This document shows positions 25,868-64,000 of a DNA stretch of 64,000 bases, one piece after another. Made by a program: the position numbers and the translations under genes. The notes below the pieces were generated by a model, which was given only the letters and a program-made list of their open reading frames with translations, was not told where the DNA came from and did not search any database. The number at the start of each line of letters is the position of its first letter. Within the stretch, counting starts at the first letter, position 1. This stretch comes from Schmidtea polychroa. Taxonomy: Eukaryota. The stretch is taken from assembly GCA_044892525.1 (NCBI GenBank), contig CM097885.1:14820001-14884000 (forward strand), given 5' to 3'.

Positions 25868-25923
25868 GTAATTTTGATATTGATGTAAATATTGGTCGTA
25901 ATAATTTTAATAATGTAAATAGT

Positions 25924-26036
<113 letters not shown>

Positions 26037-26347
26037 ATAATGTAGAACCTTTATGTAATAAAATTTGTAATTTTAAAAAGTTTCCTTTAAATAATTTTAA
26101 ATGTTATAGTTATTTTAATGCTGATCGATCTTTAATAAATAATAATAATAATCCTAAGAATCAAGAAGAGTATAATGAAACTAAAGAAGCAGAATAAAAT
26201 AATAAAATAGTAAATGAAAAAGTTTATAAATTTATTAAAAAGGCAGAAGATAAATTAGAGAGAAAGGAAATTGGGTGGATTAATGAAATATCAGAGGAGC
26301 AAAATATTTTCACTAAAGATGAATGGAAACGACCGAGTTATGACAAA

Positions 26348-34394: not shown

Positions 34395-37300
34395 TTAAGG
34401 AACTGCCCATCTCTTAAGCCATTCAATTCGTCTGAGTTTCTTTGTTGTCCCGTCACTCAATTCCACCTGGTGCTCTGACAAAAACTTTGATATGACAAAA
34501 GGACCTTCATACTGTAGTCCATCTTTGTCGCGATTTTGTGGTTCTTTCCGAACTAATACTTTCTCCCCCACCGTGAAACATCGATTCGTTCTCTTCTCTG
34601 TTTCCATCTCTTTAATTCGTTTAGCTGCTTTCTCACTGTTCTCTCTTACCAATCTATGTATCTCAACTGTATCCAATGTCGTCTGAGGCAATGTTGAATG
34701 AAGGTTAATCTTCCTCCCAAAAACAATTTCAAATGGAGAAAATACCGTCGCGCTCTGTTGTGTCACGTTGATACAAAATTATACTCGAGGAAGTAACTCC
34801 GCCCAATTTCGCTCTCCTAGTCCACCTGCTAATGATGTTGCCAGCAAGTCTCTGACTGTCCGTATTGTTCTCTCAACTAAACCGTTAGATTGATGCTGAT
34901 ATGGTGAACTGAACTGTTGCGTAATACCCAGTCTTCATAGATTTGTTTTCATAATACCACTATCGAAGTTCTTCCCTCTGTCTGAGAGACAATTTCGCGG
35001 TTTTCCGAAACGGTATATCCACTTCTCCAATATGGCTTTGAAAATCGATCTCTCGTCTTGTCTCTCCAGTGCGGTCAGACTGACCATTTTGCTAAAACGA
35101 TCAATGATAACTAGCATATACCTGTACACTCCACCATTCTTCATGTGTGCTATATCAATGACCAACTGCTCTAAAAATTCTGAACTTATTATCGGCAACA
35201 ATCGTTCCTTTGTCTTCTCCTGCATTATTTTCCTTCTGCAGCATATCTCACATACTCTCAAACAGTTTTGTATAGTTTCTTGCATGTTTGGCTAAAAAAA
35301 TATGTTGCTCATATAGCTAATTAATTTCTTTACTCCAATGTGACACATTTCAGTATGTATTCCTTTAACTAACGTATTTGAGTAGTCTATCGGCACCAGG
35401 ATGAAATCTTTACCATTCTTCTCTAATAATAAAAACTCATCTTCTAATTTTATGTTGTTATGCAAATTGAAAGGAAATTTCTTTTTATTCAAGTCATTTT
35501 TTCCTCTTCTCCCTGTAACACTCTTGTCATGTGAATGAAATCTACATCATCTTGTTGCTTTTCTAAGAGTTTTGTCATCGACTCAGTCTTCTGTAATGAG
35601 CTGATATGTCTTACTCTGGCTTTTTCTTCTTTTGCGTCTTCATGTCTAGTCTGGCATTGTGCACATAACATCCCTTTAATCCTTGATATTCCGTCCGCAT
35701 TTCCATGTTCCTCTCCTTTCCTATATTGAAGATCGAAATCATATCCGGAAAGGTTGGCTAGCCAGGTTTGAAATTGCGGGCTTATCGGTTTTTTTGTGTA
35801 TCTCATGAAAACCAACGCCTTGTGATCCGTTCGTACTACAAATGACTTTCCGTATAGATATTGTTTAAAATACATTACATATTCGTGTATAGCAAGTAAC
35901 TCCTTCCTAGTCACACAATAACCTTTTTCATGCGCGGTCAAGTGTCTCGACCCATATGCAATTACCACTTCAGTACCATCTTCTTTAGCTTGACATAAAA
36001 CTGCTCCGATGGCCCCAAAACTAGCGTCTGTATCCAGAATAAAGTTTCTATCCATTCTTGGGTAATCTAGAATTGGAGCTTCACACAACTTTGTTTTAAG
36101 TAATTCAAAACTATTGTTGCAATCTTCTGACCAATTAATCTTTTTCTCACTGCCGGACGTAGCTGCATGTAGAGGTTCCGCAATTTTCGCATAGTCTTTT
36201 ATAAACTTCCTATAGTAATTGGTCATACCTAAAAAGGATCTTAATTGTTTGGCGCATACTGGTATTTCTGCATCTTGAATCTCTTTAATCTTCTTGTCGT
36301 TCGTTTTTATCCCACTTGCACTTATAGTGTGCCCTAGGAATGTCAATTCTTCTTTATACAGATTACATTTTTCTGGGTTAATTCTCAACCCCGCTAGTTG
36401 AATTCTTCTGAATACTTCCTCTAATCGGTTATTGTGTTCCTCTTTGTCTTTTCCATAGACAAGAATGTCGTCGAGGTAGACAACAACACCCTTAAATAAT
36501 ATTCCATCCAACATTGAGTGCATCATTATTTGAAACGTCGCAGGGGCGGTTGCTAGTCCAAAAGGAAGTCGGTTAAAACAAAACTGTCCTTGCCTTGTAC
36601 TGAATGCCGTGACCTCTTGAATTTCCTTCGCCATTCCAACTTGATAATATGCTTGACCTAGATCGATGGATGTGAAATATTTTGAATCTGCCAGACAATC
36701 CAGTAGAAATCGTGTATCTGGCATTGGAAAAGATATCTTTTCAGTGATCGCATTCAACCCTCTATAGTCGACACACATCCTTATTGATCCATCTTTCTTA
36801 GTCACAATCACTAGTGGCGCGTTCCATGCACTTTTGCATTTTCTAATAACTCTCGCTTCTAATAAGTTTGTGACAAGTTCGTCAAGCTTTTGTTCTAAAT
36901 GCATTGGTTGTCTTCTTGGCTGTAACATTACAGGCCCACCTACTATATTCATTTCATGTTGAACAACTTTCGTAAACCCGAGATCAAACGTTGAAGCCAT
37001 AAAAATACCTTTGAACTTCCGTAGCAATATGCCTAACTGTTCATTCTTCCCGTCTCCAAGCATTAATAATGCTTTTTCTTCTAGTTGTGAGTCCACATAT
37101 GTCCTCCCTACTTGTGACGCTTCAATATTGTCTACCTCTACCAGTCGAATACCAAATCTCTCCATTGTATCTACACCCCCAATGAAATCTGGACGTATAT
37201 CTTTGACAACTATAACATTAATAATTCTTTTTTTCCCATTCCAATCGGCTTCTATCGTCATTGCTCCTAACGGTCTTTCCATTCCCGTCGAAAATACTCC

Positions 37301-37474
37301 ACAAAGAGAAATTGTGCTCTGCTTCAACCTCGGTTTCCCAATCTTTGTCCAACTTTTTTCACTCATAACTGATACTGACGCTCCAGAGTCCCAAAGCATG
37401 TCAATCGCCGTCATGTTTATTACAATCTTACTCCACTTTCTTCTGTCTGTCGTCTCATACATCTTCTGTATCAT
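34395..37474 (-). pseudogene. pol: pol of element B: PR-RT-RH in one ORF, integrase frameshifted
   Basis: LWDSGA, YLDD and DTDAS in 35489-37474; integrase split across 35292-35492, 34935-35285 and 34395-34766. Confidence 0.92.
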
Positions 37475-37621
37475 GTCTTCATTTCGCTTCTTTCTACTGA
37501 TTATTGTGTCGACCCCACTGACGAAATGAAAGCAATGGGATCGTCCTTGTTTTTTGGTTTATCCATTGATTTTTTTATCGTTTCTTCGTAATTACTGTAT
37601 AAATCTTCTGTGAAATCACCA

Positions 37622-38749
37622 TTATTTCTTTCGTGATCTTCTTTCTAAATACATGCCACTCTCTTCTGATATCCTTTTTCTATTTTTAAGCAAAAAACAA
37701 TCTCTGAATCGATGACCTTCTTTTCCACAGATTAAACATTTGTCTTTCATAGGACATTCAAAACGCCGGTGCCCTTTTTCTCCACAACAAAAACACTGAC
37801 CTGGTGTCAGTTTCACTGGATGAGGCGAATCTCTTCCTTTGCTGTCATTAAATAACCTTCTTGCAATATCTTTAAGCGATACTGTAGGTATTCTTCTCTC
37901 TGGTTCTCCTGTCTCGTATCGTCCTCTATACCGCTCATTTTCATTCTTGTCTTCATTTACAATTGGTACAAACCGACCATTACCAGGTCTATTCCTCTCA
38001 TGATTAATCTCTCGGTGTTCGTCACGTTGATGTGCAGTTGTCTTCACAATTGTTCTTTGGTCTCGTCTACCCTCGAATTTACCATTTTTCATCACTGATG
38101 CGTAAGAGTCTCTTCTTATGGCATCAATATTGAATTTATTGTCATTCGTCATCTCGATCTTCTCCTGAATTTTTGCCATATCCCTGGCATCTTCAAAACT
38201 TGTCACTTTCCCTGATAAGAATATTTCTTTTACTCTATCGTCTTTCGCTCTGTTAGAAATAATGTCTCGAACAATCTGTTCATCAGACATTCCAGAGCTA
38301 AATACACTTTTAACTAAACTTCTTACTCGTATTTCGAAGACTTGGAATCTTTCATCTCTCTCTTGCTGAATTTGAGCTAGTTCCACAATCTTGTTAGTAA
38401 TGGTTTTCCTTACTGTAAAAGTTTCTATAAACCACTCTATTGCCATTTCATCGGTCATCTTCGCTATTTTCGCCGCTTCCCATAACATCGATGCCGCATC
38501 TGTCAACAAAAGATCCAATGCGTTTACTAGACTTTGATCTTCTATTCTCAGCCATTCCATAATATCCTTTAGCCAAAGTTCGGCTTCAGATTCAACTTTT
38601 CCGTCAAACTTTCTGACATTAAAATTTAGCATCTCACGTGCTTGTTTTGACAAGGAATCTAACATATTCTTAGTTCCTTTCTTTTTTCCTATCGCATTGA
38701 TTTCCTTGGCATGGTCGCCAGTTATGATGTCTTCAACTTCTAAATTCAT
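37622..38749 (-). CDS. gag: Gag with two CCHC knuckles (element B)
   Basis: CFCCGEKGHRRFEC, CLICGKEGHRFRDC. Confidence 0.9.
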   Translation of the reverse strand: MNLEVEDIITGDHAKEINAIGKKKGTKNMLDSLSKQAREMLNFNVRKFDGKVESEAELWLKDIMEWLRIEDQSLVNALDLLLTDAASMLWEAAKIAKMTDEMAIEWFIETFTVRKTITNKIVELAQIQQERDERFQVFEIRVRSLVKSVFSSGMSDEQIVRDIISNRAKDDRVKEIFLSGKVTSFEDARDMAKIQEKIEMTNDNKFNIDAIRRDSYASVMKNGKFEGRRDQRTIVKTTAHQRDEHREINHERNRPGNGRFVPIVNEDKNENERYRGRYETGEPERRIPTVSLKDIARRLFNDSKGRDSPHPVKLTPGQCFCCGEKGHRRFECPMKDKCLICGKEGHRFRDCFLLKNRKRISEESGMYLERRSRKK

Positions 38750-50555: not shown

Positions 50556-50996
50556 TAGGGCATGGTTCGATTAATCGGTTAATCGATAAATTTATATATG
50601 GTTTGATTAATCGAACAATTTCTAGCTAAGTTAATACGATTTAACAAGCTCTGAAAAACAAACTTAAATTGAAAATCGAAGCTTAGGAACGATTTTCTTT
50701 GTCTTTAGATGAGTGGACTTCAAAACGCAATCATCGATATATCTGTCTAAATATTCACACCAAAGATAGATGTTTTTGGGCTTGGCACGATAAGAATAAA
50801 AGAAACCATGCCAGCAGCCAAAGCAGTTGAAATTGTAGAAAAAAAATTAAGCGAATATGACATTATTTTGAAAAAGCATATAGTGGCAGTTGTGACAGAT
50901 GGCGCCTCTGTAATGAAAAAGATGGGTCGTTTGATGTGTATTTACCATCAAGTTTGCCACAGCCACGGAATACATTTGCCAGTTGTAGACGTCCTT
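50556..50996 (+). mobile_element. hAT transposase fossil interrupted by the Maverick
   Basis: SLDEWTSKRNHRYICLNIH and IVAVVTDGASVMKK...CHSHGIHLPVVDVL, broken exactly at 50996. Confidence 0.8.
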
Positions 50997-51303
50997 AGTG
51001 TGTATCTATCCCTAACGACCACAAGCCTCCCAACTGTTTTCATGTTTTATACCTATTTTTTTCCCGTTTTATACCTATTTTTCCCTCATAAACGTAAAAA
51101 AAACACTTAAAACCTTAAAAACCTATATCTTTTAATTTCTTTATTCCGAAGACATTTTGCTTTCAAAATAAAAACTTAAAAAACAACAAAAATATTAAAA
51201 AAACAACACAAAATGTTAATAAAACAGGGAAAAAAAATACTGATAAAACTATGAAAAACGTTTGTCGGCTTGCGGTCGTTAGGGATAGATACACACTACT
51301 TGC

Positions 51304-51450
51304 AGGTCGCCAGTTTATCAAGTCGCCAGTTTATCAAGTCGCCAGTTTATCAAGTCGATAGTTTGTCAAGTCGATGATGCAATCGCTGCGGTCTTGGCAA
51401 GTCGACAGCTTGGTAAGTCGACAGCTTGGCAGGTCGATAGCTTGGCAAGC
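51304..51450. repeat. Maverick subterminal 16-bp tandem repeats
   Basis: AAGTCGCCAGTTTATC variants (about 4 copies) then AAGTCGACAGCTTGGC variants (about 3 copies). Confidence 0.85.
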
Positions 51451-51610
51451 TGCTAGAATATAAATATAAAAAAAATAAAAAAAAAATAAAAATAAAAATA
51501 AAAAAATAAAAAAAATAAAAATAAAAAAAAATAAAAATAAAAATAAAAATAAATATATAAAAATTTAAAATTTAAAAACAACGTATCCAGTAAAAAAATT
51601 TTTTCTAAAA

Positions 51611-54600
51611 ATGAATTGTAATATTTGCAATAAAGTTTTTAAAAATAAAACAGGATTAATTTCTCACTATAAATCGAAAGCTCACTTACTAAAAGAAAAT
51701 AATCTTAATGACACAAATTCAAAAGTTTGTACTAAATGTAAAGGAAGATTTCTACATTCTGGATATAATAAACATTTTGAAAATTGTATCGGGAAAAATA
51801 GAGAAATATTTACATGTCCTCATTGTAACTTTTCAACAAAACTAAATTTCTATTATTTAAGACATTTAAAAGAATGTAAAAATAAAAAACAAAATTCTGA
51901 CGTTGAAGAATGTCATTCAGAAGGAGAACCTGATCATGTTGAAAGAGAAAAATACAACTGGGATGATTTTAATCATATAGATGAATTTCAATTAAAAATT
52001 AATGGACCTGCAACCCCTGGAGAATATATAAGGAGAAATAAAAAAAATATTAAAAATTCTTTCACTGAAGCTTTAAAAAATTATAAACCAACAAGGTATA
52101 ATGTTATAAAATATAAAATTACAATCAAAGCAAAATATTGGAGAGGACCAGAAGAAAAGACAACTCCTTTAGATGTTGAAATTGGAATACCTTTTAAATA
52201 TTTATTTTCAACTAGAGGATTTAATAAAAGCATCAAAGAAATAATTCAAGCAGTAGAAGCAAAACAAGAAGAGGTTGAAAATGAATTAGGAGATTCAAAC
52301 TTAGTATTCAACTCTTTCCAAACTTTAGTGATTGATTATTGGAGAGGATTACCACCTAATCCTAAATCTTATATTCAAACACCCTTTAGATCTAGAGTTG
52401 TTATAAATGTACAGAATAAGGATAACAAATGTTTCATGTGGTCAATACTTGCATATTTACATCCTCAAGCTGAAAACCCTCAAAGAGTTTCAAAATACAA
52501 ACAATATGAAAATGAATTTATATTTCCCAAGGGATTCACACACCCAATGAAACTAGAAGACATTCCAGAATTTGAAAAACTAAATAATCTTAAACTTAAT
52601 ATTTATGAACATGTTAAAGGATGGGGACATGGAAGGAAAGATATTATTCCAATTTATATTTCTGATAGTGATAGCACGAGGGAGATATATCTTTTAATCT
52701 TGGAAGAAGGAAATAATCAACATTATGTTTTAATAAAAGACTTTCAAGCTTTTACATCACCAGAGAATCCAACTAGTGGAGGAGGAACATGTAAAAGATG
52801 TCTTCATTATTCAACAACTAAAAACTCTATGATTAAACATGCAAGATTTTGTGAAAAAGATGATCCAGCTTTAATTAGAATGCCTACAGATCCCAGGATG
52901 TATTTTAAAAACTTTTCAAATTTATTACAAACATTAGGAGTTGTCTATGGAGACTTTGAATCTATAAATCGTAAACAAGATATAATTATGCAATATTTAA
53001 AAATAATAGAAAAATATAAACTCATGGATGAATGGAAAGCCTCTAAACAGAAGATGAAACCAGAGAGGATGAAAGCCTTTCTAAGAAAAAGAAATAAACC
53101 TAATAGTGTTAAAAAAACTAAACAATTACCATCTGCTTATAAATTATTATTTAAAAGTAATTATCCTGAACTCATAGAATCTAGAGAATATGCATTTCAA
53201 GGAACTTCAGAAGATGTTTTAAATCATTTTACTAAAAGTATAAATGATCTAGAACATGAAATATTTAAAATATTAAAAACAAAGTATCCTCAAAAAATTT
53301 CTAATCAACAACAACAAGAATATGAAAATACTTCCAACTGTTGGATGTGTAAACAAGAAATTCTTCCTGATGATAAAGTTATAGATCACGATCATTTAAA
53401 AAAGGAAAATAATTATCGAGGAGCAGCCCATAGAAATTGTAATCTTAATTGTCATACTCCTAAATTTGTACCAGTTATATTTCATAATCTTTTTGGTTAT
53501 GACATACATCTATTTATTAAACATTTAGCAGAAAATGCTAAAAACTCTTTCAAAGTTATAGGACTTACAAAGGAAAAATATAAATCAGTTGAATATGGAA
53601 AATTAAAATTTATAGACTCGTTAAACTTTCTCCAAATGTCTCTAGATGGAATAGCTAAAACAATGAAAGCAGAAAATTTTAAAATCACTCGAGAATTCTT
53701 GGAAAAAAATAATATCCCCCCAGAAGAATATCCTACATGCTTAGCAAAAGGAATATATCCCTATGACTATGTTGATTCATTTGAAAAATATAATGAAACA
53801 AAATTACCAGAGAAAGAAGATTTCTATTCCCAACTTCAAAAATCTCATATTACAAATCAAGAATATTCTCGAGCAAATAAAATGTGGGATCTTTTCAACT
53901 GTAAAACTTTAGGAGAATATACAAGTATGTACTTATCCCTAGATGTTTATATTCTAGCAGATTGCTTTGAAGAATTTACAAAGTCTTTTGTTCTTAAACC
54001 TTATAATTATATAACAGCTCCTTCTTTAGCTTGGGATACTATGTTATATACCATTTGGACTTCAGATCTTCCAGAATCTGATAAAATTATAGATCTTTTA
54101 ACCGACCAAGATATGTTTAATCAAATTAAAACAAACATTAGAGGAGGAGTATCTTCAGTAATGGGGAATAGAGAAATAAAAGCTAGAAATGCAATAACTA
54201 CTAGCCGAAGAATCTCTAAACACCCTGATCCATATATAAAACTTAACAATGAGGAACTAAAAGAAGTATTAGAAGGAATGAAAAATCCTCTATTTATACT
54301 TTATATAGATGCAACAGCTTTATATTCAGGAATTATGACTCAATATTTACCAATGAGTGACTTTCATGAAATATATCCTCCAGAATGCCCCTCAGAAGAA
54401 TCCTTAAAAGACCTTATGAAAGAAATACGTTCAACTCCTAAAGATTCTCCAATAGGATACTTTGTAGAATGTGACCTCGACTACCCAGATGATATAAAAT
54501 CAGGAACAAGACATTTCCCTTTAGCTCCTATAAGAAGAAAGATTGATATCAACGAACTTTCTGAATGGCAAATCTCACAAGATAAACCTCCAACAATGAA

Positions 54601-55930
54601 ACTTCTTTGTGATCAAACAGATCGAACTTATTATCTTTGTCACTATAGACTCCTCCAGTTTTATCTTTCACAAGGAATGATATTAAAAAAAGTTCATAGT
54701 GTCATAAGATTTAAACAAGCAGCATTCATGAAGACTTTCATCGAGGAGAACATTCGTTGTCGAAACATTGCAAAAAGAGAAGGTAACCTTTTAAAAGACA
54801 ATAATTATAAACTTTTAAACAATTCAGTCTTTGGGAAGACAATGGAGAATGTTGATAAATATACTCATATTGAACTCCTAACAAATACCCCGAAAGATAT
54901 AGCCCGTTATAATCGTATGCTAGGAAAGCCTACATTTAAAAACGCACAAGTATTTTCTGAAAATCTTACTGCAGTAGAACTAAAGAATTATGAGAAAACA
55001 TATAATAAACCAATATTTATTGGCTTTGCAATTTTAGAACTTTCAAAATTACAAATGTATGAAACATATTATAACATCTTACAACCTATATATGGATCGA
55101 ATATAGCAATGCATGCAATGGATACAGATTCAATGTTTTTAACAATAAGAACTCACGATTTACAAAGTGATATCTCTGAAAATCCTATACTTTCAAATTT
55201 AATAAATTCATCTGGAGAATTATTTTCGTTTAAAGATGAAAAACCTTTTACTCCTATAGAAAATGGAATATTTATTCGTGCTAAACAATATTCATATGAA
55301 ACATTTACAAATCCTAAATTTGAAGAACATACATTTATATTTAAAACCCCAGAAACAGAAGAAAGCATTACACATAGATATCCTATATTCCCTAAAGGAC
55401 CTGACGGACAGGGAGAAAAACCTGTAAAGGATAACAGATGTAAAGGAATTCAGAGATGTGTAGCAAAGAATCTTTCTCATCAAGATTATATAGATACATT
55501 GAATCCAAATCATAAAGATAAAATTGATGAAATACATCAACTTAAAAGTGAAAAGCATGATATTTACTTGATAGAATCCCAAAAAGTATCATTATCAAAT
55601 TATGATGATAAAAGATTCATACTAAGTGATTTAAAGACAACTCTTCCTATAGGAAATAATTTAATACCGATAATAAAAAATCTTGCTAGTTTGAATAAGT
55701 TATATGATACAAAGATTACTGATCTTGATATTTATAATGTTGAAATCATTTATCCTGAGAGAATTGAGAAACCTTTATATTCTCAAGTTTTTAATCCTAT
55801 ATGTTTAGAACTTAAATATTTTAATACTGATCCTGAATATATAAAAGGTCTAAGTGATAAAGAATTTAAAGATCATAAGGAGGTTCTAAAAACTAATTTC
55901 GAAAAGTTAACATCAGATTCTATCAAATGA
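51611..55930 (+). CDS. polB: Protein-primed family B DNA polymerase with N-terminal zinc fingers and an endonuclease VII-like insert
   Basis: Exo motifs GDFES, FHNLFGYD, YLSLDV; pol motifs YIDATALY, KLLNNSVFGK, MDTDS; CWMC...DHDH...RGAAHRNCN. Confidence 0.95.
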   Translation: MNCNICNKVFKNKTGLISHYKSKAHLLKENNLNDTNSKVCTKCKGRFLHSGYNKHFENCIGKNREIFTCPHCNFSTKLNFYYLRHLKECKNKKQNSDVEECHSEGEPDHVEREKYNWDDFNHIDEFQLKINGPATPGEYIRRNKKNIKNSFTEALKNYKPTRYNVIKYKITIKAKYWRGPEEKTTPLDVEIGIPFKYLFSTRGFNKSIKEIIQAVEAKQEEVENELGDSNLVFNSFQTLVIDYWRGLPPNPKSYIQTPFRSRVVINVQNKDNKCFMWSILAYLHPQAENPQRVSKYKQYENEFIFPKGFTHPMKLEDIPEFEKLNNLKLNIYEHVKGWGHGRKDIIPIYISDSDSTREIYLLILEEGNNQHYVLIKDFQAFTSPENPTSGGGTCKRCLHYSTTKNSMIKHARFCEKDDPALIRMPTDPRMYFKNFSNLLQTLGVVYGDFESINRKQDIIMQYLKIIEKYKLMDEWKASKQKMKPERMKAFLRKRNKPNSVKKTKQLPSAYKLLFKSNYPELIESREYAFQGTSEDVLNHFTKSINDLEHEIFKILKTKYPQKISNQQQQEYENTSNCWMCKQEILPDDKVIDHDHLKKENNYRGAAHRNCNLNCHTPKFVPVIFHNLFGYDIHLFIKHLAENAKNSFKVIGLTKEKYKSVEYGKLKFIDSLNFLQMSLDGIAKTMKAENFKITREFLEKNNIPPEEYPTCLAKGIYPYDYVDSFEKYNETKLPEKEDFYSQLQKSHITNQEYSRANKMWDLFNCKTLGEYTSMYLSLDVYILADCFEEFTKSFVLKPYNYITAPSLAWDTMLYTIWTSDLPESDKIIDLLTDQDMFNQIKTNIRGGVSSVMGNREIKARNAITTSRRISKHPDPYIKLNNEELKEVLEGMKNPLFILYIDATALYSGIMTQYLPMSDFHEIYPPECPSEESLKDLMKEIRSTPKDSPIGYFVECDLDYPDDIKSGTRHFPLAPIRRKIDINELSEWQISQDKPPTMKLLCDQTDRTYYLCHYRLLQFYLSQGMILKKVHSVIRFKQAAFMKTFIEENIRCRNIAKREGNLLKDNNYKLLNNSVFGKTMENVDKYTHIELLTNTPKDIARYNRMLGKPTFKNAQVFSENLTAVELKNYEKTYNKPIFIGFAILELSKLQMYETYYNILQPIYGSNIAMHAMDTDSMFLTIRTHDLQSDISENPILSNLINSSGELFSFKDEKPFTPIENGIFIRAKQYSYETFTNPKFEEHTFIFKTPETEESITHRYPIFPKGPDGQGEKPVKDNRCKGIQRCVAKNLSHQDYIDTLNPNHKDKIDEIHQLKSEKHDIYLIESQKVSLSNYDDKRFILSDLKTTLPIGNNLIPIIKNLASLNKLYDTKITDLDIYNVEIIYPERIEKPLYSQVFNPICLELKYFNTDPEYIKGLSDKEFKDHKEVLKTNFEKLTSDSIK

Positions 55931-56004
55931 TTTTTTTCTTTTAAAAATGTCAACAATTAATTTAAGAGTGACAACATCAACCTTTTGAAGGGCAATAAAT
56001 TTTT

Positions 56005-56640
56005 TTATGTATGATTCTTTAGCCACTTCTCTCGTTTAATTTTTTTAGAATATTCATTAGTTATAACATTAGCACTTTTTAATCTATTAATATTATTTTT
56101 AATATCTTGTATTATTTGATTTGATTTCATTATTTCATCATCAGTTAAGATTCCATCTTCCAAAGCTTTTAATTGAAATAAAAATAATTTAGAGATTCCT
56201 AATTCTATTGATAAACAAACTTCTCTATATAAACTTTTCTTTTTAGAAGTATAAGATAATGAAACTATTTCAGTCAAGAAACCATCAGCTACAGAAATAC
56301 TTCCAAGTATTACAGGTGCTATTGTTAAAACTGGTAAAGTTATGGGTAAAATAACTGTTAATATTGCAGATGCAAATCCTAAAGAATAACCTATAATTTT
56401 TAAAACTGTATTCCCTTTATTCCATCTATTTTTAACCTTTTTATAATGCTTTAATAAATCTTGTAAATGTAAGGTTTCTGATTTAAATTCTTTTACTCTC
56501 ATAATTTCAAGTTCTGTGGGAGCCGAGGCCTTGGAACCTTTGTGACCTTCGGAATAATATCCTGATGATCTCAATTCTGGAGGGACCTCTGGGTAAATTT
56601 TTTCTTCTCTTACTTCTTCCATCTTTTGGACTTTGTCCAT
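56005..56640 (-). CDS. Maverick accessory membrane protein (hydrophobic hairpin)
   Basis: Intact 211-aa ORF with hydrophobic stretch IIGYSLGFASAILTVILPITLPVLTIAPVILGSISV. Confidence 0.75.
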   Translation of the reverse strand: MDKVQKMEEVREEKIYPEVPPELRSSGYYSEGHKGSKASAPTELEIMRVKEFKSETLHLQDLLKHYKKVKNRWNKGNTVLKIIGYSLGFASAILTVILPITLPVLTIAPVILGSISVADGFLTEIVSLSYTSKKKSLYREVCLSIELGISKLFLFQLKALEDGILTDDEIMKSNQIIQDIKNNINRLKSANVITNEYSKKIKREKWLKNHT

Positions 56641-56648
56641 TTTAATAA

Positions 56649-57659
56649 TTAAAAAAATAAGACTTTATTCTTCTGAGCACCATCTGGCACCAATACTCGG
56701 ATATCAAAAGAAACTCTTGTTGAGAGAATGTCTTTATACAATTCCATCAATGCTTTACGAACTTCATCAACATCAACCTTTTTTTCATAAAATATTAAAT
56801 CTATATATTGTACAAGTGTGCTTTTAAAAATAATATTCTTACTTTTAACTTTATGTAGTCCATGTGAATGAGTATTAACATACCAATCTCCGTGTGGTAA
56901 ATCATAACTAGTCATTATAACATCACCCTTTTCAAGCTTACTATTATAATCACATTTCACAAACCATTTCATTCTTTCATTATCATCATCAAACAAAAAG
57001 AAATAAGGATCAATAATCTTTACAACCATAAAAACACTCCATTCTTTACTGTTTGTTGTTATTAAACTTGGTTCTATAAAATGTTTATATGTATGGGGTA
57101 ATAATGTTTTATTCTGTTCTAATTCAGCAGCTCTTTTTCTAATACTATGTGTGGTGTTAATGTGTGTTCCATGAGACTCTAAATTTGAAATTCTTTTATT
57201 AAATGATGTAATCATCTCATTTATTATATTATATATTGTATTAAATTTAGTATTCATAATTTGTTTATCTTTAGAGTTTAATATGGTAGTATTTAACTTT
57301 ACAACTTGTTCAGTTAACAGACTTTGTAACTTGTCAAATTTATCATTAAATTGTTGTTCGATATTATTAAGCTTTGATTCCATTGAATCCATTTTTGTTG
57401 TTAATGAACTTTCAATTCTTGTTGTTGTTAAATCAGTATATTTTTTAACACCATCTACATATTTCTTATTAACTGCATCAGCTTCATCAGTTGGAAAAGA
57501 TAATTCTTTTATCTTGTGTCCATTTAAAATTAAATCACCCTTCATTGAATCACCTCTTTCATTAATATATTTATTTTCTGTTAAAGTTAATATTTCTTCT
57601 GTATTAAACCCTGTTTTTATTGTTCCACCACCTCTATTACATGGAATATAAGAACTCAT
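56649..57659 (-). CDS. Fibre/spike-like protein
   Basis: GDSMKGDLILNGHKIKELSFPTDEADAVNKKYVD tail-fibre-type motif, then a heptad coiled coil and a globular C-terminus; adjacent to penton. Confidence 0.65.
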   Translation of the reverse strand: MSSYIPCNRGGGTIKTGFNTEEILTLTENKYINERGDSMKGDLILNGHKIKELSFPTDEADAVNKKYVDGVKKYTDLTTTRIESSLTTKMDSMESKLNNIEQQFNDKFDKLQSLLTEQVVKLNTTILNSKDKQIMNTKFNTIYNIINEMITSFNKRISNLESHGTHINTTHSIRKRAAELEQNKTLLPHTYKHFIEPSLITTNSKEWSVFMVVKIIDPYFFLFDDDNERMKWFVKCDYNSKLEKGDVIMTSYDLPHGDWYVNTHSHGLHKVKSKNIIFKSTLVQYIDLIFYEKKVDVDEVRKALMELYKDILSTRVSFDIRVLVPDGAQKNKVLFF

Positions 57660-57696
57660 TTATTAATAATTTAAAATGACATGTGGAACTTCGTAT

Positions 57697-58467
57697 TCAA
57701 ACCTGTTTCAAATGTAAATACATTGAAATCTCTTCTCCATTAAAATCAATCAATTCTCCTTCTTGATTAAGAATTTTAAAATTAATATCCATTATATATT
57801 TTCTACATAAAGGTAAATAATTTGGAGGATTCATTCTTTCAACTATTTTATATCCCATAGGAACTGTGTTTGAGGGAAAGGAATATAAAACATTTGTTTG
57901 TTTACCATTATTATAAAAACCAGTTATACAATCGCAATGAATATTTATTGTGTTTGTATTTATTATTTTTATAATATTTTCTGATGTTATATTCTCAACT
58001 ACAGGTGTGATATAATGGTTTCGTGTAAATCCTAAAATTGTTCTAAAGAAACTATTATTTTGAAAATGAATTCCTATATTCTCTAAAGTCATTATACATT
58101 TTGAAGTTGGTAAATCCATTTTAATTTTAATGACTCCATTTGTTTTTTTAGAAAGTATATTATTTAAATCTTTTATCTCATAAGCTCCGGGTTCGATTGT
58201 TATTATAATCTTATCTGTAGATTTTGGGCTTATATAATAAAATATGTTATTATCTTTAGTTATATTAAAAATAGTATTATAAGCACAAAACCATAATAGT
58301 CCTAATTCATAATTTAAATTTTGATCTAATTTAATTGAATCTTGAAAGTTTATAGTAAAGTCTGATTCTTTTGAATTTATAGATAAAGTTCTTGAATATT
58401 TATCTGACATTATGTTTACCATTTTTTTTAAATTATCTTCCGGAAGGTTGCGAAGCTCCATTTTCAT
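57697..58467 (-). CDS. Minor capsid protein (penton)
   Basis: INIHCDCI...VLYSFP...YLPL...ILNQEGELIDFNGE; true start may be a downstream Met. Confidence 0.85.
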   Translation of the reverse strand: MKMELRNLPEDNLKKMVNIMSDKYSRTLSINSKESDFTINFQDSIKLDQNLNYELGLLWFCAYNTIFNITKDNNIFYYISPKSTDKIIITIEPGAYEIKDLNNILSKKTNGVIKIKMDLPTSKCIMTLENIGIHFQNNSFFRTILGFTRNHYITPVVENITSENIIKIINTNTINIHCDCITGFYNNGKQTNVLYSFPSNTVPMGYKIVERMNPPNYLPLCRKYIMDINFKILNQEGELIDFNGEEISMYLHLKQV

Positions 58468-58895
58468 AGTATAGATTTTAAATCATTATAAATTTCTTGG
58501 ATTAAGGAAGTGAAACCTTCTCCTTTGGATTTATTCAATCTATACAAAACATATAAGCTTAAAATACCACATATTTTAGTATTATTAGGTTGAACTTGTA
58601 AAGAATTAAAAGTGTAGTCCGAGAGATAGTCTTCAACTTCTTTAGTGGGTTTAATCCCAAAAGAATCAAAGTATATAGATTTATTATATATACAAACCCA
58701 ATGAGATCCTTTTTCATTTGAATTTTGATAATTTATAATGATATTCTTTGGAGTGTCTTCTTTCAGACTCGACAATTCATCATTCATTAATATTTTTATT
58801 TTTAAATTTAAATAATCTGCATAATCTTTTAAATCAAAATTTGTTTTTGTATTTATTCCAAATGTTTTTAAAAAATCTAATATTGAAGGAGTCAT
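58464..58895 (-). CDS. Adenain-like cysteine protease
   Basis: GSHWVC, YFDSFG and Q...CG catalytic motifs. Confidence 0.9.
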   Translation of the reverse strand: MTPSILDFLKTFGINTKTNFDLKDYADYLNLKIKILMNDELSSLKEDTPKNIIINYQNSNEKGSHWVCIYNKSIYFDSFGIKPTKEVEDYLSDYTFNSLQVQPNNTKICGILSLYVLYRLNKSKGEGFTSLIQEIYNDLKSIL

Positions 58896-58917
58896 TTTAT
58901 ATTTTATAACTTCGTAT

Positions 58918-59715
58918 TTATAACTTCGTATACTTATTAAATTTATCTTTTGAAATTATTCCTTGTTTTAATAGTTCTTTAGAAATCTTTAAAATATCAG
59001 AATCTAAATTATTATGTCCTGCTTTTTTAGCTGCTAATAGTTTTCTTAATTCAATAAAAAGATTGATTGGGTTTATCTCCTTACCCTTTCCCTGGCCCTG
59101 ACCCTGGCCCTCTCCTTCTGTGACAATATAACCCCTTTCATTTTTATTTAAATATTTCTTTAAATCTTGAATATGTTTTGCTTTAGCACTACCATGTACT
59201 AATTCTATTAAATTTAAATATTTTTTAATTTCTAGAAGATCAACATTCTCTGAGGGATATCCACAAACTAATCCATAAAAATCATCTGTAAATTCAAAAT
59301 CTAGGTGTTTAGTATTATAAACATTTTGTGAATGAATACGTGATTTATTTTCTGAATTTAAATATAACAGAAAGTCATGTTTATTAATTGTTATTATTTG
59401 ATATCCTTCAACATTAATATTAAATGTAGGTTTAATTGTTTTACTTAAACTCACATTAATTTTAGGATCAAGTATAAGAGGTTTTATATTTAAATCTTCC
59501 AACCATGGTAATTCTTTTAAATCTTGTTTATCTTCCAACTCTTTAAATTTTAAAACTTCTAACTCTTTTATGGCTTTAATTGTTGGTCCTTGTTGTTGTT
59601 GGATTACCTCATTTAATATTATAGATTCAGCGTGTTGAGTTGTATCTTTTTTATTATATTTATCTTGTTCTGATTGTAATTTTTTTAAAAGTGCTAATCT
59701 TTCTTCATATACCAT
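58918..59715 (-). CDS. Conserved Maverick protein of unknown function
   Basis: C-terminal LRKLLAAKKAGHNN...ELLKQGII resembles a motif recurrent in Polinton proteins. Confidence 0.7.
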   Translation of the reverse strand: MVYEERLALLKKLQSEQDKYNKKDTTQHAESIILNEVIQQQQGPTIKAIKELEVLKFKELEDKQDLKELPWLEDLNIKPLILDPKINVSLSKTIKPTFNINVEGYQIITINKHDFLLYLNSENKSRIHSQNVYNTKHLDFEFTDDFYGLVCGYPSENVDLLEIKKYLNLIELVHGSAKAKHIQDLKKYLNKNERGYIVTEGEGQGQGQGKGKEINPINLFIELRKLLAAKKAGHNNLDSDILKISKELLKQGIISKDKFNKYTKL

Positions 59716-59737
59716 TTTAATGGTATTAAAAATGGTA

Positions 59738-60262
59738 TCATTTTGGTAAAGGATCCGTTGGAAAGGGCTTCAAGTATAAACCTTTACCATTTTTAATTTT
59801 ACAAAGACATCCATTTTTTAAAGATTTACATATTTTTTTTAAATCATCTTTATCTTTCGAAGATAAAGATTCAGATGTAGAAATTTGATTTTTTAAAAAA
59901 TCATTTAAACCACGACCTTTATAAGGATCAAGATAAAGACCTTTCCCTCCCTTCATTTTCTCGATTTCAGTTTGTAGTTTTTCTTTTTCTAGGTCTGTCT
60001 TTTGAGATTCTTTAGCTTTTTGAACTGTAGTTGCAATTCCTCCAGCTATTCCAGCAGCACCTGATAGTCCGGCAATGATTGCAGGTATTAAAGCAGCTAA
60101 TGGAAGAAAGCCACCTTCTTTAGCTTCGTGGAGCTTCGCTCTAACTTGTTCTTTTACATGTTTTCCAATAAAATATTTTTTACCAGAGATTACTACTGAT
60201 TTATTCTTGTCTGAATTTATTAATTCTTGCAAAGATTCCTCTGTAGGGTTTTGTGTTGTCAT
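59738..60262 (-). CDS. Adenovirus pX-like core/membrane-active protein
   Basis: EGGFLPLAALIPAIIAGLSGAAGIAG resembles the pX segment GGILPLLIPLIAAAIGAVPGIA; three GxGL motifs. Confidence 0.7.
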   Translation of the reverse strand: MTTQNPTEESLQELINSDKNKSVVISGKKYFIGKHVKEQVRAKLHEAKEGGFLPLAALIPAIIAGLSGAAGIAGGIATTVQKAKESQKTDLEKEKLQTEIEKMKGGKGLYLDPYKGRGLNDFLKNQISTSESLSSKDKDDLKKICKSLKNGCLCKIKNGKGLYLKPFPTDPLPK

Positions 60263-60277
60263 TTTATAATAAATAAA

Positions 60278-61081
60278 ATGGATATTTGGAAACCAATTTT
60301 AAATAGACATAAGAGTAAATTTAATAATAAAGTATTTCCTGATAATTTTAGATGCTTAATTATTGGATCTTCTGGATGTGGAAAGAATGTTCTTCTTTTG
60401 AGGATGTTATTAGAAGATGGTTTTTTAGATTATAATAATTTAATCTTTTATTCTACAACCATTAACCAACCAGAATTACAACTTTTGAAATGTGGATTTG
60501 AAAATAAATTAACTAAAAAAGCTATAATTGATATTTTTAAAAATCAACATACATATCCTGAAGAAGTTTTTCAACCTTGTGATATGGTTGATTGGTACAA
60601 GGAAAAGATTTTAGAATCAGATATTAGTAATAAAAATGATTACATCTGTGAAGATGAGGGGCAGAGGGAGGGTTATGGGATTAGAGTTTTATTCTCTAAT
60701 AAACCTGAAGATGTTTTGCATTGTGATTTACTTCCTAAAGATAAAAAGAATCTAGTTATATTTGATGATGTTGTTAACATGAAAAATCAAGAGATTCAAA
60801 AGAGTTACTTTACACGAGGTAGACATAATAATTGTAATGTTATTTATATATCTCAAACTTATTATGCTTTAGATAAAAACTCTATAAGAAATAATTCCAA
60901 TTGTTTTATATTTTTTAAATTAGATCGTCGAGATAAGAATATGATTTATAATGACTTATTTTCAAATGTTGAACCTGATAAGAATATGTTTGATATGTTT
61001 GTTGATAATCATTGGAAAGAAAAATATAATTATATTTATTTGGATAGAGAAGAAGCTGAAATATGGAAAAGTTTGTTTTAA
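60278..61081 (+). CDS. A32/FtsK-like genome packaging ATPase
   Basis: Walker A GSSGCGKN, Walker B LVIFDD, RGRH arginine motif; ATG at 60278 (MDIWKP) preferred over the track start. Confidence 0.92.
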   Translation: MDIWKPILNRHKSKFNNKVFPDNFRCLIIGSSGCGKNVLLLRMLLEDGFLDYNNLIFYSTTINQPELQLLKCGFENKLTKKAIIDIFKNQHTYPEEVFQPCDMVDWYKEKILESDISNKNDYICEDEGQREGYGIRVLFSNKPEDVLHCDLLPKDKKNLVIFDDVVNMKNQEIQKSYFTRGRHNNCNVIYISQTYYALDKNSIRNNSNCFIFFKLDRRDKNMIYNDLFSNVEPDKNMFDMFVDNHWKEKYNYIYLDREEAEIWKSLF

Positions 61082-61096
61082 CTTGTTTTCTATAGT

Positions 61097-62476
61097 TCAG
61101 AAACTAGTTTTCTGTAGTTCATTATTATAAAATCTACCTAATATTTTTTCATTATTTAAATCGATGATACCATATGTTATTGGAGTTGTATGATGTATTT
61201 TATTTATAATAAAAATTTCATTTGTCCATTTTGCTGTGAATCCTTTTTCAAATTAATTTTTATATTTAAATATTCTTACGCGGTCACCAATTTTAAATTT
61301 TGGTTTTTCAAAAACATTATTTTCAACATTTACCACTTTAACTGTTTCAGGATTCAAGGAAGCATTTAAAGGTGTTGATTTTATAGAACTATGTACATCA
61401 TTATTATATTCATTTACAATCTTTTGTAACAATTCATTGTTCCATTTTTGTTTTCCAATAGCAGTAAAATATTTCCACATTTTATTTTTTAATGTTCTAT
61501 TTAATCTTTCAACCACAACTGCTTTTCCTTCGTTTTCTGTTGAATATAATTTAATATCATTTTCATTTAAAAACTTTGTAAAAACTTTGTTATAAAATTC
61601 TGTTCCTTTATCACACCATAAATATTTTGGAATTCTTTGATATTCTTCAAATATATTTTCAAATGCTTCTGTAATAGAATATCCTGTTTTATTTTCTAAA
61701 CACCTTGCAAAAGCAAATCTTGTATATAAATCTATTACTGTTAAAATTATTTTATATTTTTCAGGGTCTGATGATTTGGGCATAAAGACTAAATCAGCAG
61801 ACCATGTTTGATCTTTTTCATGTACTTGAACTTTTAAATATTTTTTATTTTTTCTAAATTCATGGTGTAATTCGTTGGCATATTTTATTTCTGATTCTGT
61901 TGGGGTTTGTAAGGGTTTATTCTCAAAGAGTTGATTCTCAAGGGATCTTTCAACGTCTGCTTGTTCAATAATCCTTTTATTAGCAACATCTTTTGCTTTT
62001 CTAGGAAGTCCTGCTCCTATGAAAATCTTACCTTTCATGGCTAATTTAACTAGAGCTCTTTGAATCTTTTCCTTGCTTGATGGATTTTGGATACTATTTA
62101 AATCATGTATTAAATTCACATCTGCAACATGTCTATCTCTAAGATCTTCTGAGTTGTAAGCAATATCATGTTTTAAAGCTGCTTGATCAATTCTATTTAT
62201 TGGTTCTTCTCCTTGTTTAGGATTATTATTTTCATCTAATCTAATATCTAATCTTGTTCCTGGTCCAGTATAGTTGTGATGGAATAAATGTCTTTCACCT
62301 GGATATTTTTCAGTAGTAAAGGGTTTTAATAATGTTGATGTTGTTTTTAAAGATTGAAGATCACCTCCGGCTGCTAGTTTAGATCCAAGTATATGTTTTT
62401 TAGTTTTAACATGAGAGGCTTTGTGATGTCTTGTAACTTGACAATGACAAGTTTCACATGTCCAATATTTACTCAT
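61097..62476 (-). pseudogene. Zinc finger-PLA2-rve integrase fusion with one in-frame TAA at 61253-61255
   Basis: CETC...H...H; YTGPG...DQAALKHDIAY; WSADL, CDKGTEF, VERLNRTLK; the frame continues FEKGFTAKWTNEIF...GRFYNNELQKTSF* past the stop. Confidence 0.88.
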
Positions 62477-62489
62477 TTTAAAAAGTTTT

Positions 62490-63788
62490 TTATGAAGAAG
62501 AATCACCTCGTACATTTTCAATAATTGAAATCTTTCCACCATATAATTTCATTTCTATTTTCTTTTCTTCTAATATTAATGTATATACTTTAGCTTTAAA
62601 ATTAGAATCCTTTGTTATATGAAGTGTAACATCAACATTATTTATGGCTAGGCGATCATCTTGGTCTGATACATTTATACAAAATATAGAATATAAATTT
62701 TTGAAATCTTCTAAACTTAATTGCGGCTCAACTTTGAAGTCGTGGCATGTTTCAATATAATTCAGGTACGGGAATATGTTTTCATTATTTTCAATATTAA
62801 ATTCCATTCGATTTATTGGATAATATGAACTATTCAATTGGACCTGGATGGTTTTTAAATTATCACCCCCAATCTTTTGAATAAACAAGTTGTTGTTCTT
62901 TTGGAAAGATGGATCTCCTTCTTTGAATCCAATCAAGATATATCTTGGTCGGTATGCTAGATTTGCTACCTTTATAGAATATGTTGAACCCTCTGTCATA
63001 CTAAATTCACTACAGATTCTATTTAAATAATTTACATTTATAGATTTGTTGGAATTTAATCTTTCAAGTAATTTAATTTCAGAATGTGGATTTAATGTCC
63101 ATTCAGGTATATGTAATTCAAGTGTTGATAATTTTAATTTAGCTTTTGTATCCTTATCTCCATAAAACAATCTTTTATCACCATCTAGTCTATTACAGAT
63201 GAATTCTATAAAAACATTATGAAGTATACGGTTATAGTTTTGAAGGAATCCGAACAAGTGTTTTAATTCAAAATAACCTTCAAATTTTTTCAACTTATAA
63301 AGTTCAACTCTTTTATAGTAAGCATAATTTATATCTAAACCATCTTTATCTAAATCCCCTTTATTAACATCAGGAATCCAACCTGTTAATTCACCATATT
63401 CGTTTTTATAATCACAACCAGTTAAAATAAAATTTAACATTGTAGAATATACTCCTGGATGCAAAACAGTTTCAATTTCTGATGATCCTAGTTTTAATCT
63501 CATGTTGGAGAATAAATTTGGAAAGAAATTATTTTCTAGGGTTATATCTTTGTTTGCTTCAATTTCTAATTCAATTTTATAATATAATTTGGCATTACAA
63601 ATATCTATAGGGTTTGATGTTTGAAGAGATTGAAAAACTATATCACCCCTACGATTTAAGTTTGCAATAGATCCTGAAGTTGGCGAGATTTTTAAAATAT
63701 CATTTTTCTTGATTTCATGAGTAAATTCTTTATTATAATCAAGATTTAATTTATTTTTTTCTTGAATTTTAAGATTTATATTATTCAT
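62490..63788 (-). CDS. Major capsid protein (double jelly-roll, hexon-like)
   Basis: 432 aa; NNFFPNLFSNMRLKLGSSEIE, LKHLFGF, RPRYILIGF, LNSSYYP and YSIFCINVS are typical of Polinton MCPs; genomic context. Confidence 0.85.
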   Translation of the reverse strand: MNNINLKIQEKNKLNLDYNKEFTHEIKKNDILKISPTSGSIANLNRRGDIVFQSLQTSNPIDICNAKLYYKIELEIEANKDITLENNFFPNLFSNMRLKLGSSEIETVLHPGVYSTMLNFILTGCDYKNEYGELTGWIPDVNKGDLDKDGLDINYAYYKRVELYKLKKFEGYFELKHLFGFLQNYNRILHNVFIEFICNRLDGDKRLFYGDKDTKAKLKLSTLELHIPEWTLNPHSEIKLLERLNSNKSINVNYLNRICSEFSMTEGSTYSIKVANLAYRPRYILIGFKEGDPSFQKNNNLFIQKIGGDNLKTIQVQLNSSYYPINRMEFNIENNENIFPYLNYIETCHDFKVEPQLSLEDFKNLYSIFCINVSDQDDRLAINNVDVTLHITKDSNFKAKVYTLILEEKKIEMKLYGGKISIIENVRGDSSS

Positions 63789-63824
63789 TTTTATAATAAA
63801 AATTTAAAAAATGATAAAAATCCG

Positions 63825-63909
63825 AACTCCGATAGCGCAGTGGGCTAGACTGGCACAGTGGTTCAAATGGATAGCGGTTCAAATCCTAACTACGGTTAGT
63901 TTTTTTTTT
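63825..63909 (+). ncRNA. Candidate Pol III type-2 small RNA (~80 nt), not a canonical tRNA
   Basis: A box TAGCGCAGTGG 63833-63843, B box GGTTCAAATCC 63876-63886, CTAAC-TACG-GTTAG hairpin 63886-63899, T10 terminator 63900-63909. Confidence 0.65.
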
Positions 63910-64000
63910 AACATAAAATAATATTAAAAATTTGAAAATAATATTGAAAATGGTGTGGGTATCTTAGATTTATATTTTATTTTATTTATTTTATTTTATT

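What the first reader, a model, noticed from the sequence alone, without database searches (positions are those of the whole stretch)
63825..63909. Candidate Pol III small RNA inside a Maverick: possible VA-RNA analogue
Seen: a comparatively GC-rich ~85-bp island in very AT-rich DNA, ~36 bp upstream of and divergent from the capsid ATG. It has an A box (TAGCGCAGTGG) and B box (GGTTCAAATCC) starting 43 nt apart, as in tRNA. A second A-like box (TGGCACAGTGG, 63851) and B-like box (GGTTCAAATGG, 63860) lie between them. A C(UACG)G tetraloop hairpin and a T10 run follow. It does not fold as a cloverleaf, but the 5' AACUCCG(A)UAG could alternatively pair with the 3' CUACGG(UU)AGUU as a terminal stem. 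Established: adenoviruses, which share the pPolB/adenain/DJR-capsid lineage, make Pol III VA RNAs from internal A/B boxes to counter dsRNA defences; UNCG loops are extra-stable; oligo-T terminates Pol III. Inference: this element encodes its own Pol III RNA (RNAi decoy, small-RNA precursor) or uses a TFIIIC-bound box as an insulator. I know of no description of this in Mavericks, but have not searched.
Basis: partly seen in the sequence, partly recalled or inferred. Interest (0 to 1): 0.85.

Follow-up and report, generated by a model that had tools for sequence, protein, structure and literature searches.

The report
tRNA-derived units in Maverick arms
A virus-like jumping element in an animal genome carries worn-down copies of a host transfer-RNA gene inside its end repeats; they keep the start and stop signals for RNA polymerase III but not the shape of an adenovirus decoy RNA, and whether they are actually transcribed is untested.

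Summary
The A box, B box and T-run are real and lie inside a 14-kb Maverick (6-bp target duplication). The unit is one of several thousand in this genome. A second copy follows 215 bp on, outside the window. Siblings carry one to three units in their long terminal arms, beside the capsid or the polymerase gene, always facing outward. Three diverged types align almost gap-free with host tRNA-Cys. They share 17 of 21 box positions but only 2 of 27 middle positions, and one type passes Rfam's tRNA cut-off. So these are tRNA-derived Pol III-type units, not a dispersed SINE. The VA-RNA reading is weak: the window copy folds no better than shuffles, and the UACG hairpin and terminal stem are not conserved. 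Units are dispensable: 16 of 42 capsid-picked copies have short arms without them. Expression is untested. Best guess: Pol III occupancy acts in cis on the head-to-head gene; a TMER-like RNA decoy and neutral cargo are close rivals. This scan noted the same module earlier in this genome (e1-7879910) and a similar one in another genome (e1-7468399). Nine paper searches found no description in Mavericks.

The parts
63826..63899 (+). Type-1 tRNA-derived unit, copy 1 (tRNA-length body; anticodon arm lost; predicted Pol III transcript about 75-80 nt)
   Evidence: Colinear with host tRNA-Cys and with types 2 and 3; no ARAGORN or Rfam tRNA call for this copy
63833..63843 (+). A box
   Evidence: 10 of 11 positions equal host tRNA-Cys; the common variant at position 2 is A/G, consensus-compatible
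63860..63869 (+). Inner B-like box: tandem duplicate of the T-loop segment, probably not a second promoter
   Evidence: Absent from types 2 and 3; three copies in L022; 7 of 702 deviant cells against 1 of 702 in the true B box, p=0.07
63876..63885 (+). B box
   Evidence: 10 of 10 positions equal host tRNA-Cys; 1 deviant cell of 702 in 78 sibling units
63886..63899 (+). Variable 3' segment; holds the C(UACG)G hairpin in this allele only
   Evidence: UACG loop in 16 of 80 units; 9 of 14 sites carry shared variants
63900..63909 (+). T10 run, Pol III terminator-like
   Evidence: Directly after the tRNA-length body in all three types
63910..63943 (+). AT-rich downstream flank that travels with the unit and is as conserved as the boxes
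   Evidence: 9 deviant cells of 2619
63968..64000 (+). Start of the second tandem repeat. Its type-1 unit (copy 2, with T9 run) lies beyond the window, 41-123 bp past the window end on the same contig.
   Evidence: 86% identical to copy 1; no UACG hairpin
62490..63788 (-). Double-jelly-roll capsid gene, head to head with the unit (45 bp from start codon to A box)
   Evidence: PF21738 E 7.6e-27; spacing
50998..64000 (.). Host Maverick copy (its right end lies 968 bp past the window end): pPolB, ATPase, integrase, capsid, about 300-bp terminal inverted blocks, GTCCTT target duplication. The left arm of this copy is short and lacks the unit.

Best explanation
An ancestor of this Maverick family took up a host tRNA gene (most likely tRNA-Cys) into its terminal arm. 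The copy duplicated and diverged into three types that lost the anticodon arm but kept the A box, B box, box spacing and terminator (shown by sequence). Host TFIIIC/TFIIIB/Pol III most likely engage them and make short U-ended pseudo-tRNAs pointing away from the element's genes (inferred). For the type in this window the selected effect is most likely in cis. The Pol III complex would sit on the 40 AT-rich bases between the unit and the capsid start codon, or just upstream of the polymerase gene at the other end. There it could act as a tDNA-type boundary or a tuner of that terminal gene's promoter in the integrated copy (inferred; tDNA barrier activity and the TFIIIB footprint are recalled, not from a call). 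It is an accessory, exchangeable module, not a core part.
For: Inside the element. Of 36 loci picked by unit pattern, 23 lie beside the capsid, 12 beside pPolB and 1 is rearranged; all face outward. Both-end pairs are 96-97% identical inverted arms in 3 of 4 pairs tested. Best of 4 host tRNAs is Cys for all 7 representatives: type 2 z 12.5-14.7, type 1 z 4.4-7.2, type 3 z 5.3. Type 2 scores 32.4 bits on Rfam tRNA, cut-off 29. Three types share 17 of 21 box columns against 2 of 27 middle columns, Fisher p 2e-7, and each ends in a T-run. Cis-specific: 20 of 23 unit-bearing capsid loci have a unit beginning 33-52 bp from the capsid start, and two different types fill that slot. pPolB start to A box is 84-139 bp in 17 of 17 left arms tested. 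Type 1 has no conserved fold.
Against: No expression or ChIP data were obtained. 16 of 42 capsid-picked copies have short arms with no unit, scattered through both capsid clades, and this copy's own left arm lacks it. Within type 1 the B box is not significantly more conserved than its inner duplicate (p=0.07), and the AT-rich downstream flank is as conserved as the boxes, so recent homogenisation could explain within-type conservation. Extra units 300-1000 bp from any start codon, and the intact T-arm of type 2, fit an RNA product better than a cis role. The type-3 B box departs from the consensus at 2 of 10 positions. Box conservation across types would be trivial if the types came from separate tRNA captures; only 4 host tRNA isotypes were compared.
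Confidence: 0.37

Rival explanations
1. The units are Pol III genes whose RNA is the point: non-aminoacylated pseudo-tRNAs that act in trans as sequence-tolerant decoys (La, tRNA-processing or small-RNA factors), like gammaherpesvirus TMER tRNA-like parts. Short-arm copies free-ride on RNA made by thousands of others.
For: Clusters of 1-3 units per arm in three types; tRNA length kept. Type 2 keeps a perfect 5-bp T-arm that differs from host tRNA-Cys at three pairs and folds better than shuffles (z -2.6 and -2.9). Terminator kept in all types. TMER tRNA-like parts act independently of sequence and bind La (10.1101/2022.05.09.491269, passages).
Against: The window's type 1 shows no structural conservation. 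No expression data. Four unit-specific motifs had 0 hits in a published planarian tRNA/tRF table (2 of 3 supplementary files searched; that species may not be the host).
Confidence: 0.3
2. Neutral cargo: a tRNA gene or tRNA-derived SINE head landed in the arm long ago, was duplicated by slippage, and is spread by arm swapping and homogenisation without benefit.
For: Dispensable and freely swapped between capsid lineages. Host tRNA genes are very abundant tandem arrays. Within-type conservation does not single out the boxes. A 9-bp AT word occurs on both sides, 16-20 bp from the ends, which could be an old insertion scar or chance.
Against: Neutral decay should erode boxes and middle alike, yet three types keep 17 of 21 box columns and 2 of 27 middle columns. 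All keep outward orientation and a terminator. The type-2 T-arm is intact.
Confidence: 0.24
3. A true VA-RNA analogue: a highly structured double-stranded decoy for Dicer or dsRNA sensors.
For: Internal A/B boxes, T-run, tandem pair, related viral lineage. VA genes are hypothesised to derive from a tRNA gene (PMC7589676, passages).
Against: Folding z +0.27 for the window copy and -0.45 to -0.93 for other type-1 alleles. No long stem, no covariation among distinct haplotypes. No Rfam VA hit. About half the length of VA RNA (length recalled).
Confidence: 0.06
4. An independent, dispersed tRNA-derived SINE that happens to sit here.
For: Thousands of copies; tRNA-derived head; one cassette (L188) had no Maverick gene within 17 kb.
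Against: 45 of 46 pattern-picked loci lie in Maverick genes or arms. The exception shares its spacers with Maverick arms. No body or tail beyond the tRNA length.
Confidence: 0.03

Closest known systems
Murine gammaherpesvirus 68 TMERs / viral tRNA-like RNAs (10.1101/2022.05.09.491269, passages read)
   Same: Cluster of sequence-diverged tRNA-like Pol III units in a DNA virus; unlikely to translate; dispensable
   Different: No microRNA hairpins before the terminator; sits in terminal arms of an integrated element; host donor tRNA still recognisable; expression unshown
Helenus / Cassandra / Ajax (TRIMp3; PMC10886601, abstract, passages and Discussion read)
   Same: [quoted passage not shown]
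   Different: Those are non-autonomous LTR retrotransposons whose promoter is thought to copy the element itself. Here a protein-primed DNA element needs no RNA intermediate, and the unit points outward and stops at once.
Adenovirus VA RNA I/II (PMC7589676, passages read; Rfam model not hit)
   Same: Internal A and B boxes, oligo-T end, tandem pair, related virus lineage, proposed tRNA origin
   Different: No apical stem, central domain or stable terminal stem; much shorter; located in the terminal arms
tRNA genes of polinton-like viruses and virophages (PMC12220804, passages read)
   Same: tRNA-related genes in the same virus supergroup
   Different: Those are reported as intact tRNAs read as codon compensation in protist elements; these have lost the anticodon arm, and type 1 escapes ARAGORN and Rfam
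tDNA barriers / extra-TFIIIC sites (recalled, no call)
   Same: B-box-driven TFIIIC binding beside a Pol II promoter
   Different: Extra-TFIIIC sites need only a B box; these keep A box and terminator too, and ride on a mobile element

Membership tests
Maverick/Polinton (host element) | pPolB, rve integrase, packaging ATPase, DJR capsid | tested here: met
   PF03175, PF00665, PF04665, PF21738 all over cut-off
Maverick/Polinton (host element) | Terminal inverted repeats and 6-bp target duplication enclosing the unit | tested here: met
   About 300-bp inverted blocks, GTCCTT on both sides
Type-2 Pol III gene | Internal A and B boxes at tRNA spacing plus oligo-T | tested here: met
Type-2 Pol III gene | Pol III occupancy and transcript | not testable with these tools
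   No read-level result was obtained
Functional tRNA | Cloverleaf with anticodon arm and 7-bp acceptor stem | tested here: not met
   ARAGORN 0; no Rfam tRNA hit for the window copy; type 2 passes Rfam but 3 of 5 anticodon-stem pairs are broken
tRNA-derived sequence | Homology to a host tRNA beyond the shared boxes | tested here: met
   Clear for type 2. For the window's type 1 it rests on z 7.2 against 2.8-3.5 for three other tRNAs and on paralogy with type 2; only 4 isotypes compared
Adenovirus VA RNA | Apical stem, central domain, stable terminal stem | tested here: not met
   z +0.27; no covariation among distinct haplotypes; no Rfam hit
Adenovirus VA RNA | Complementary GGGU/ACCC tetranucleotides | tested here: not met
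   Neither word is in 63826-63899 (feature from PMC7589676)
Adenovirus VA RNA | Blocks PKR or Dicer | not testable with these tools
   Bench assay
TMER-type RNA | 5' tRNA-like part, several units | tested here: met
TMER-type RNA | 3' microRNA hairpins within the transcript | tested here: not met
   T-run follows the tRNA-length body directly; read-through not excluded
tRNA-derived SINE | Dispersed independent insertions with body, tail and target duplications | tested here: not met
   45 of 46 loci in Maverick context; no duplication abutting the ends
TRIMp3 (Helenus) | tRNA-derived promoter in terminal repeats | tested here: met
   Inverted both-end pairs
TRIMp3 (Helenus) | Non-autonomous LTR retroelement transcribed from that promoter | tested here: not met
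   DNA element with its own polymerase; unit faces outward and terminates

The most novel reading that the evidence does not exclude
Animal Mavericks have repeatedly turned host tRNA genes into their own Pol III units in the terminal arms. In this genome several thousand such units would rival the host's tRNA arrays as Pol III templates. They would give endogenous polintoviruses a counterpart of VA/EBER/TMER RNAs, or a portable chromatin boundary, that helps them escape silencing.
Probability: 0.3. Interest if true: 0.8.

Novelty: new variant of a known kind. Interest (0 to 1): 0.52.

Why it matters
Mavericks are usually described by their proteins and bare terminal repeats. A family of tRNA-derived Pol III units in their arms would be a first non-coding gene class for animal Mavericks, as far as nine searches of the held library show, and a living model for the old idea that adenovirus VA RNA came from a tRNA. 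Natural with-unit and without-unit siblings in one genome make cis versus trans versus neutral directly testable with small-RNA, ChIP and long-read chromatin data. Type 1 is missed by ARAGORN and Rfam, so standard scans would overlook such units. Type 2 can inflate tRNA gene counts.

Tried and rejected
tRNA-Trp origin (my first, recalled guess): rejected. Host tRNA-Trp scores below tRNA-Cys for all 7 representatives. Searches were empty because my spacer ranges were too narrow; one search hit only Maverick units.

UACG tetraloop as a core feature: rejected, 16 of 80 units. Terminal-stem covariation: 37 of 2000 permutations on 80 non-independent rows, but 249 of 2000 on 24 distinct haplotypes; not accepted. 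B box versus inner duplicate: p=0.07 after dropping 2 truncated rows of 80.

Rfam on the window stretch: five chance-level hits only. Sequencing runs: no RNA holder listed; no read-level result was obtained, so expression is open.

Other hosts: no capsid relatives in viral contigs. 35 metagenome loci (86 kb, mostly short and internal) had 0 units by pattern, ARAGORN and profile; this is uninformative because termini are mostly missing. A profile search of the capsid-picked and generic-pattern loci found no fourth type.

Published planarian tRNA table: no unit-specific motif (one file and the figure PDF could not be searched). The sigma-70 scan is irrelevant to a eukaryote. My note that the window's left terminal block was flipped was wrong; it is an ordinary inverted repeat.

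Full report
Observation. The island is 44% GC against 14% just upstream. A relaxed A-box/B-box/T-run pattern hits once in the window against 0.065 per shuffle, with 12 of 200 shuffles having a hit. ARAGORN finds no tRNA in the window, and Rfam gives only five chance-level hits for 63000-64000.

Setting. The window is a stretch of contig C1 of a 781-Mb, AT-rich animal-type genome; the host is not established. The unit lies in a Maverick with pPolB, ATPase, integrase and double-jelly-roll capsid. With the contig continued, the element runs 50998-64968, with about 300-bp inverted terminal blocks and GTCCTT on both sides. The unit is about 1 kb inside the right end. A second copy, 86% identical, follows 215 bp later. 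This copy's left arm is short and has no unit.

Copies. The 30 best DNA matches were all beside a capsid gene and all tandem pairs (biased, since the query held Maverick flanks, and only 40 of 1669 candidates were scored). A family pattern gave 114 matches, control 0. Of 36 loci picked by pattern, 23 lie beside the capsid, 12 beside pPolB and 1 is rearranged; all face the terminus. Three of four both-end pairs are 96-97% identical inverted arms, the fourth 87%, so the unit is part of a long terminal repeat in many copies. A generic pattern gave 3706 forward matches, control 0 (the 9754 reverse matches are inflated by the T-run). Its 100 listed rows are 44 distinct places in the first 4.6 Mb (my count), all of this family. 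That implies roughly 7,000 units, an estimate that may include host tRNAs elsewhere. Of 10 distinct loci from that search, 5 are beside pPolB, 2 beside capsid, 2 continue into a Maverick arm, and 1 (L188) is a four-unit cassette with no Maverick gene within 17 kb. It is not a dispersed SINE.

Three types and their origin. Loci picked by capsid alone showed two further types. 23 of 42 such loci carry units in cassettes 1, 1-1, 1-2, 3-2-1 or 1-3-2. 16 have short arms without units, 1 is masked and 2 are rearranged. With and without are mixed through both capsid clades, and this copy's nearest capsid relative has a different cassette (42 rows, 38 distinct). Against four host tRNAs taken from this genome (Lys, Arg, Cys, Trp), Cys is best for all 7 representatives: type 2 z 12.5-14.7 (Lys 6.7-7.4), type 1 z 4.4-7.2 (next best 3.1-3.8), type 3 z 5.3. 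Type 2 passes Rfam's tRNA cut-off in 2 of 3 loci scanned (32.4 bits; 25.1 in the third), with an intact T-arm and a broken anticodon stem. The types and tRNA-Cys align almost without gaps. One representative of each type shares 9 of 11 A-box, 8 of 10 B-box and only 2 of 27 middle columns (p 2e-7), while each matches tRNA-Cys at 11-13 of those 27. This is the main evidence for selection on the promoter. It weakens if the types came from separate tRNAs, though they share D-loop letters and a 3' end that host tRNA-Cys lacks.

Against. Within type 1 (78 units not picked by box pattern; 2 truncated rows of 80 dropped) the B box has 1 deviant cell of 702 and its inner duplicate 7 of 702, p=0.07. The AT-rich downstream flank has 9 of 2619. 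So within-type data do not single out the boxes. The window copy folds no better than shuffles (z +0.27); other type-1 alleles give -0.45 to -0.93, type 3 gives 0.06, and only type 2 is structured (-2.6, -2.9). The UACG loop is in 16 of 80 units, and 5'/3' stem covariation is not significant among 24 distinct haplotypes. No read-level result was obtained, so expression is open. 35 metagenome capsid loci had no unit but mostly lack termini.

Mechanism. Shown: tRNA-derived units with boxes and terminator, in exchangeable terminal arms, facing outward. Inferred: host Pol III transcribes them (about 0.65). Benefit: I lean to cis (0.37). 20 of 23 unit-bearing capsid loci have a unit beginning 33-52 bp from the capsid start, two different types fill that slot, and left-arm A boxes lie 84-139 bp from the pPolB start. 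From recall, TFIIIB binds the 40 bp upstream of such a gene, and tRNA genes act as chromatin barriers. A trans-acting, sequence-tolerant pseudo-tRNA is nearly as likely (0.30), given clusters, the type-2 T-arm and the TMER precedent. Neutral cargo has 0.24, a VA-like double-stranded decoy 0.06, a free SINE 0.03.

Literature. Nine searches (listings only) showed no paper on Pol III or tRNA-like units in Maverick arms. The library lacks most subscription papers, Repbase and Dfam. Read further: PMC12220804 (passages: tRNA genes in polinton-like viruses, read as codon compensation); PMC10886601 (abstract, passages, Discussion: tRNA-derived promoters in LTRs of Helenus, no mention of Polinton or Maverick); 10.1101/2022.05.09.491269 (passages on TMERs); PMC7589676 (passages on VA RNA); PMC7962491 (passages and 2 of 3 supplementary files: no unit-specific motif); 10.64898/2025.12.11.693146 (passages: Maverick expansion in planarians; its supplements are closed).

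Earlier scan notes. e1-7879910 describes the same module about 14.6 Mb away in this genome. My loci there (L196, L199) show types 1 and 2 beside capsid and pPolB; I had found the three types before seeing that note. e1-7468399 reports a Pol III-type hairpin inside a Polinton end in another genome; I could not check it. Neither is independent support.

Verdict. A real feature, a new variant of a known kind (tRNA-derived Pol III units of viruses and mobile elements), apparently undescribed in Mavericks, with function unproven and the VA-RNA structure not supported. Interest 0.52.

Noticed in passing
window 61253-62542 (-): The integrase ORF carries a parvovirus-type phospholipase-A2-like domain ahead of the rve core (PF08398 E 2.9e-8).
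   Followed up: no
L002:1980-2220 (+), beyond the window end: A GC-richer block between unit copy 2 and the terminal block folds better than shuffles (z -2.68, 2 of 200). Earlier notes mention a folded RNA candidate and an rDNA-spacer fragment near such modules; not checked.
   Followed up: partly
L212 and L194, between type-2 and type-1 units: A short outward-facing ORF, rich in Glu/Lys/Arg, seen by eye between the units; length roughly 75 codons, not computed.
   Followed up: no
L154-L171, L224, L033-L062: Host tRNA genes sit in long tandem arrays of one isotype each (Cys about 281 bp, Trp 284 bp, Lys 424 bp, Arg 278 bp units).
   Followed up: partly
window 50998-51300 and L002:2407-2689: Each terminal block of 200-300 bp is itself bounded by short inverted repeats. 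This copy has unlike arms (short left, long right), and arm cassettes swap freely between capsid lineages.
   Followed up: partly
L188 / L225:7488-8300: A cassette of one type-3 and three type-2 units near the start of C1, with no Maverick gene within 17 kb.
   Followed up: partly
window 59738-60262 (-): Weak, below-cut-off match to adenovirus core protein X (PF05829 E 7.7e-4).
   Followed up: no
window 50700-50997 and L002:2690-3161: The Maverick appears to interrupt a transposase-like reading frame (resemblance to hAT elements recalled; no Pfam hit for the 100-aa piece).
   Followed up: no
window 24791-28785 (+) and 34935-38749 (-): Two other clusters of long ORFs, probably other mobile elements.
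   Followed up: no
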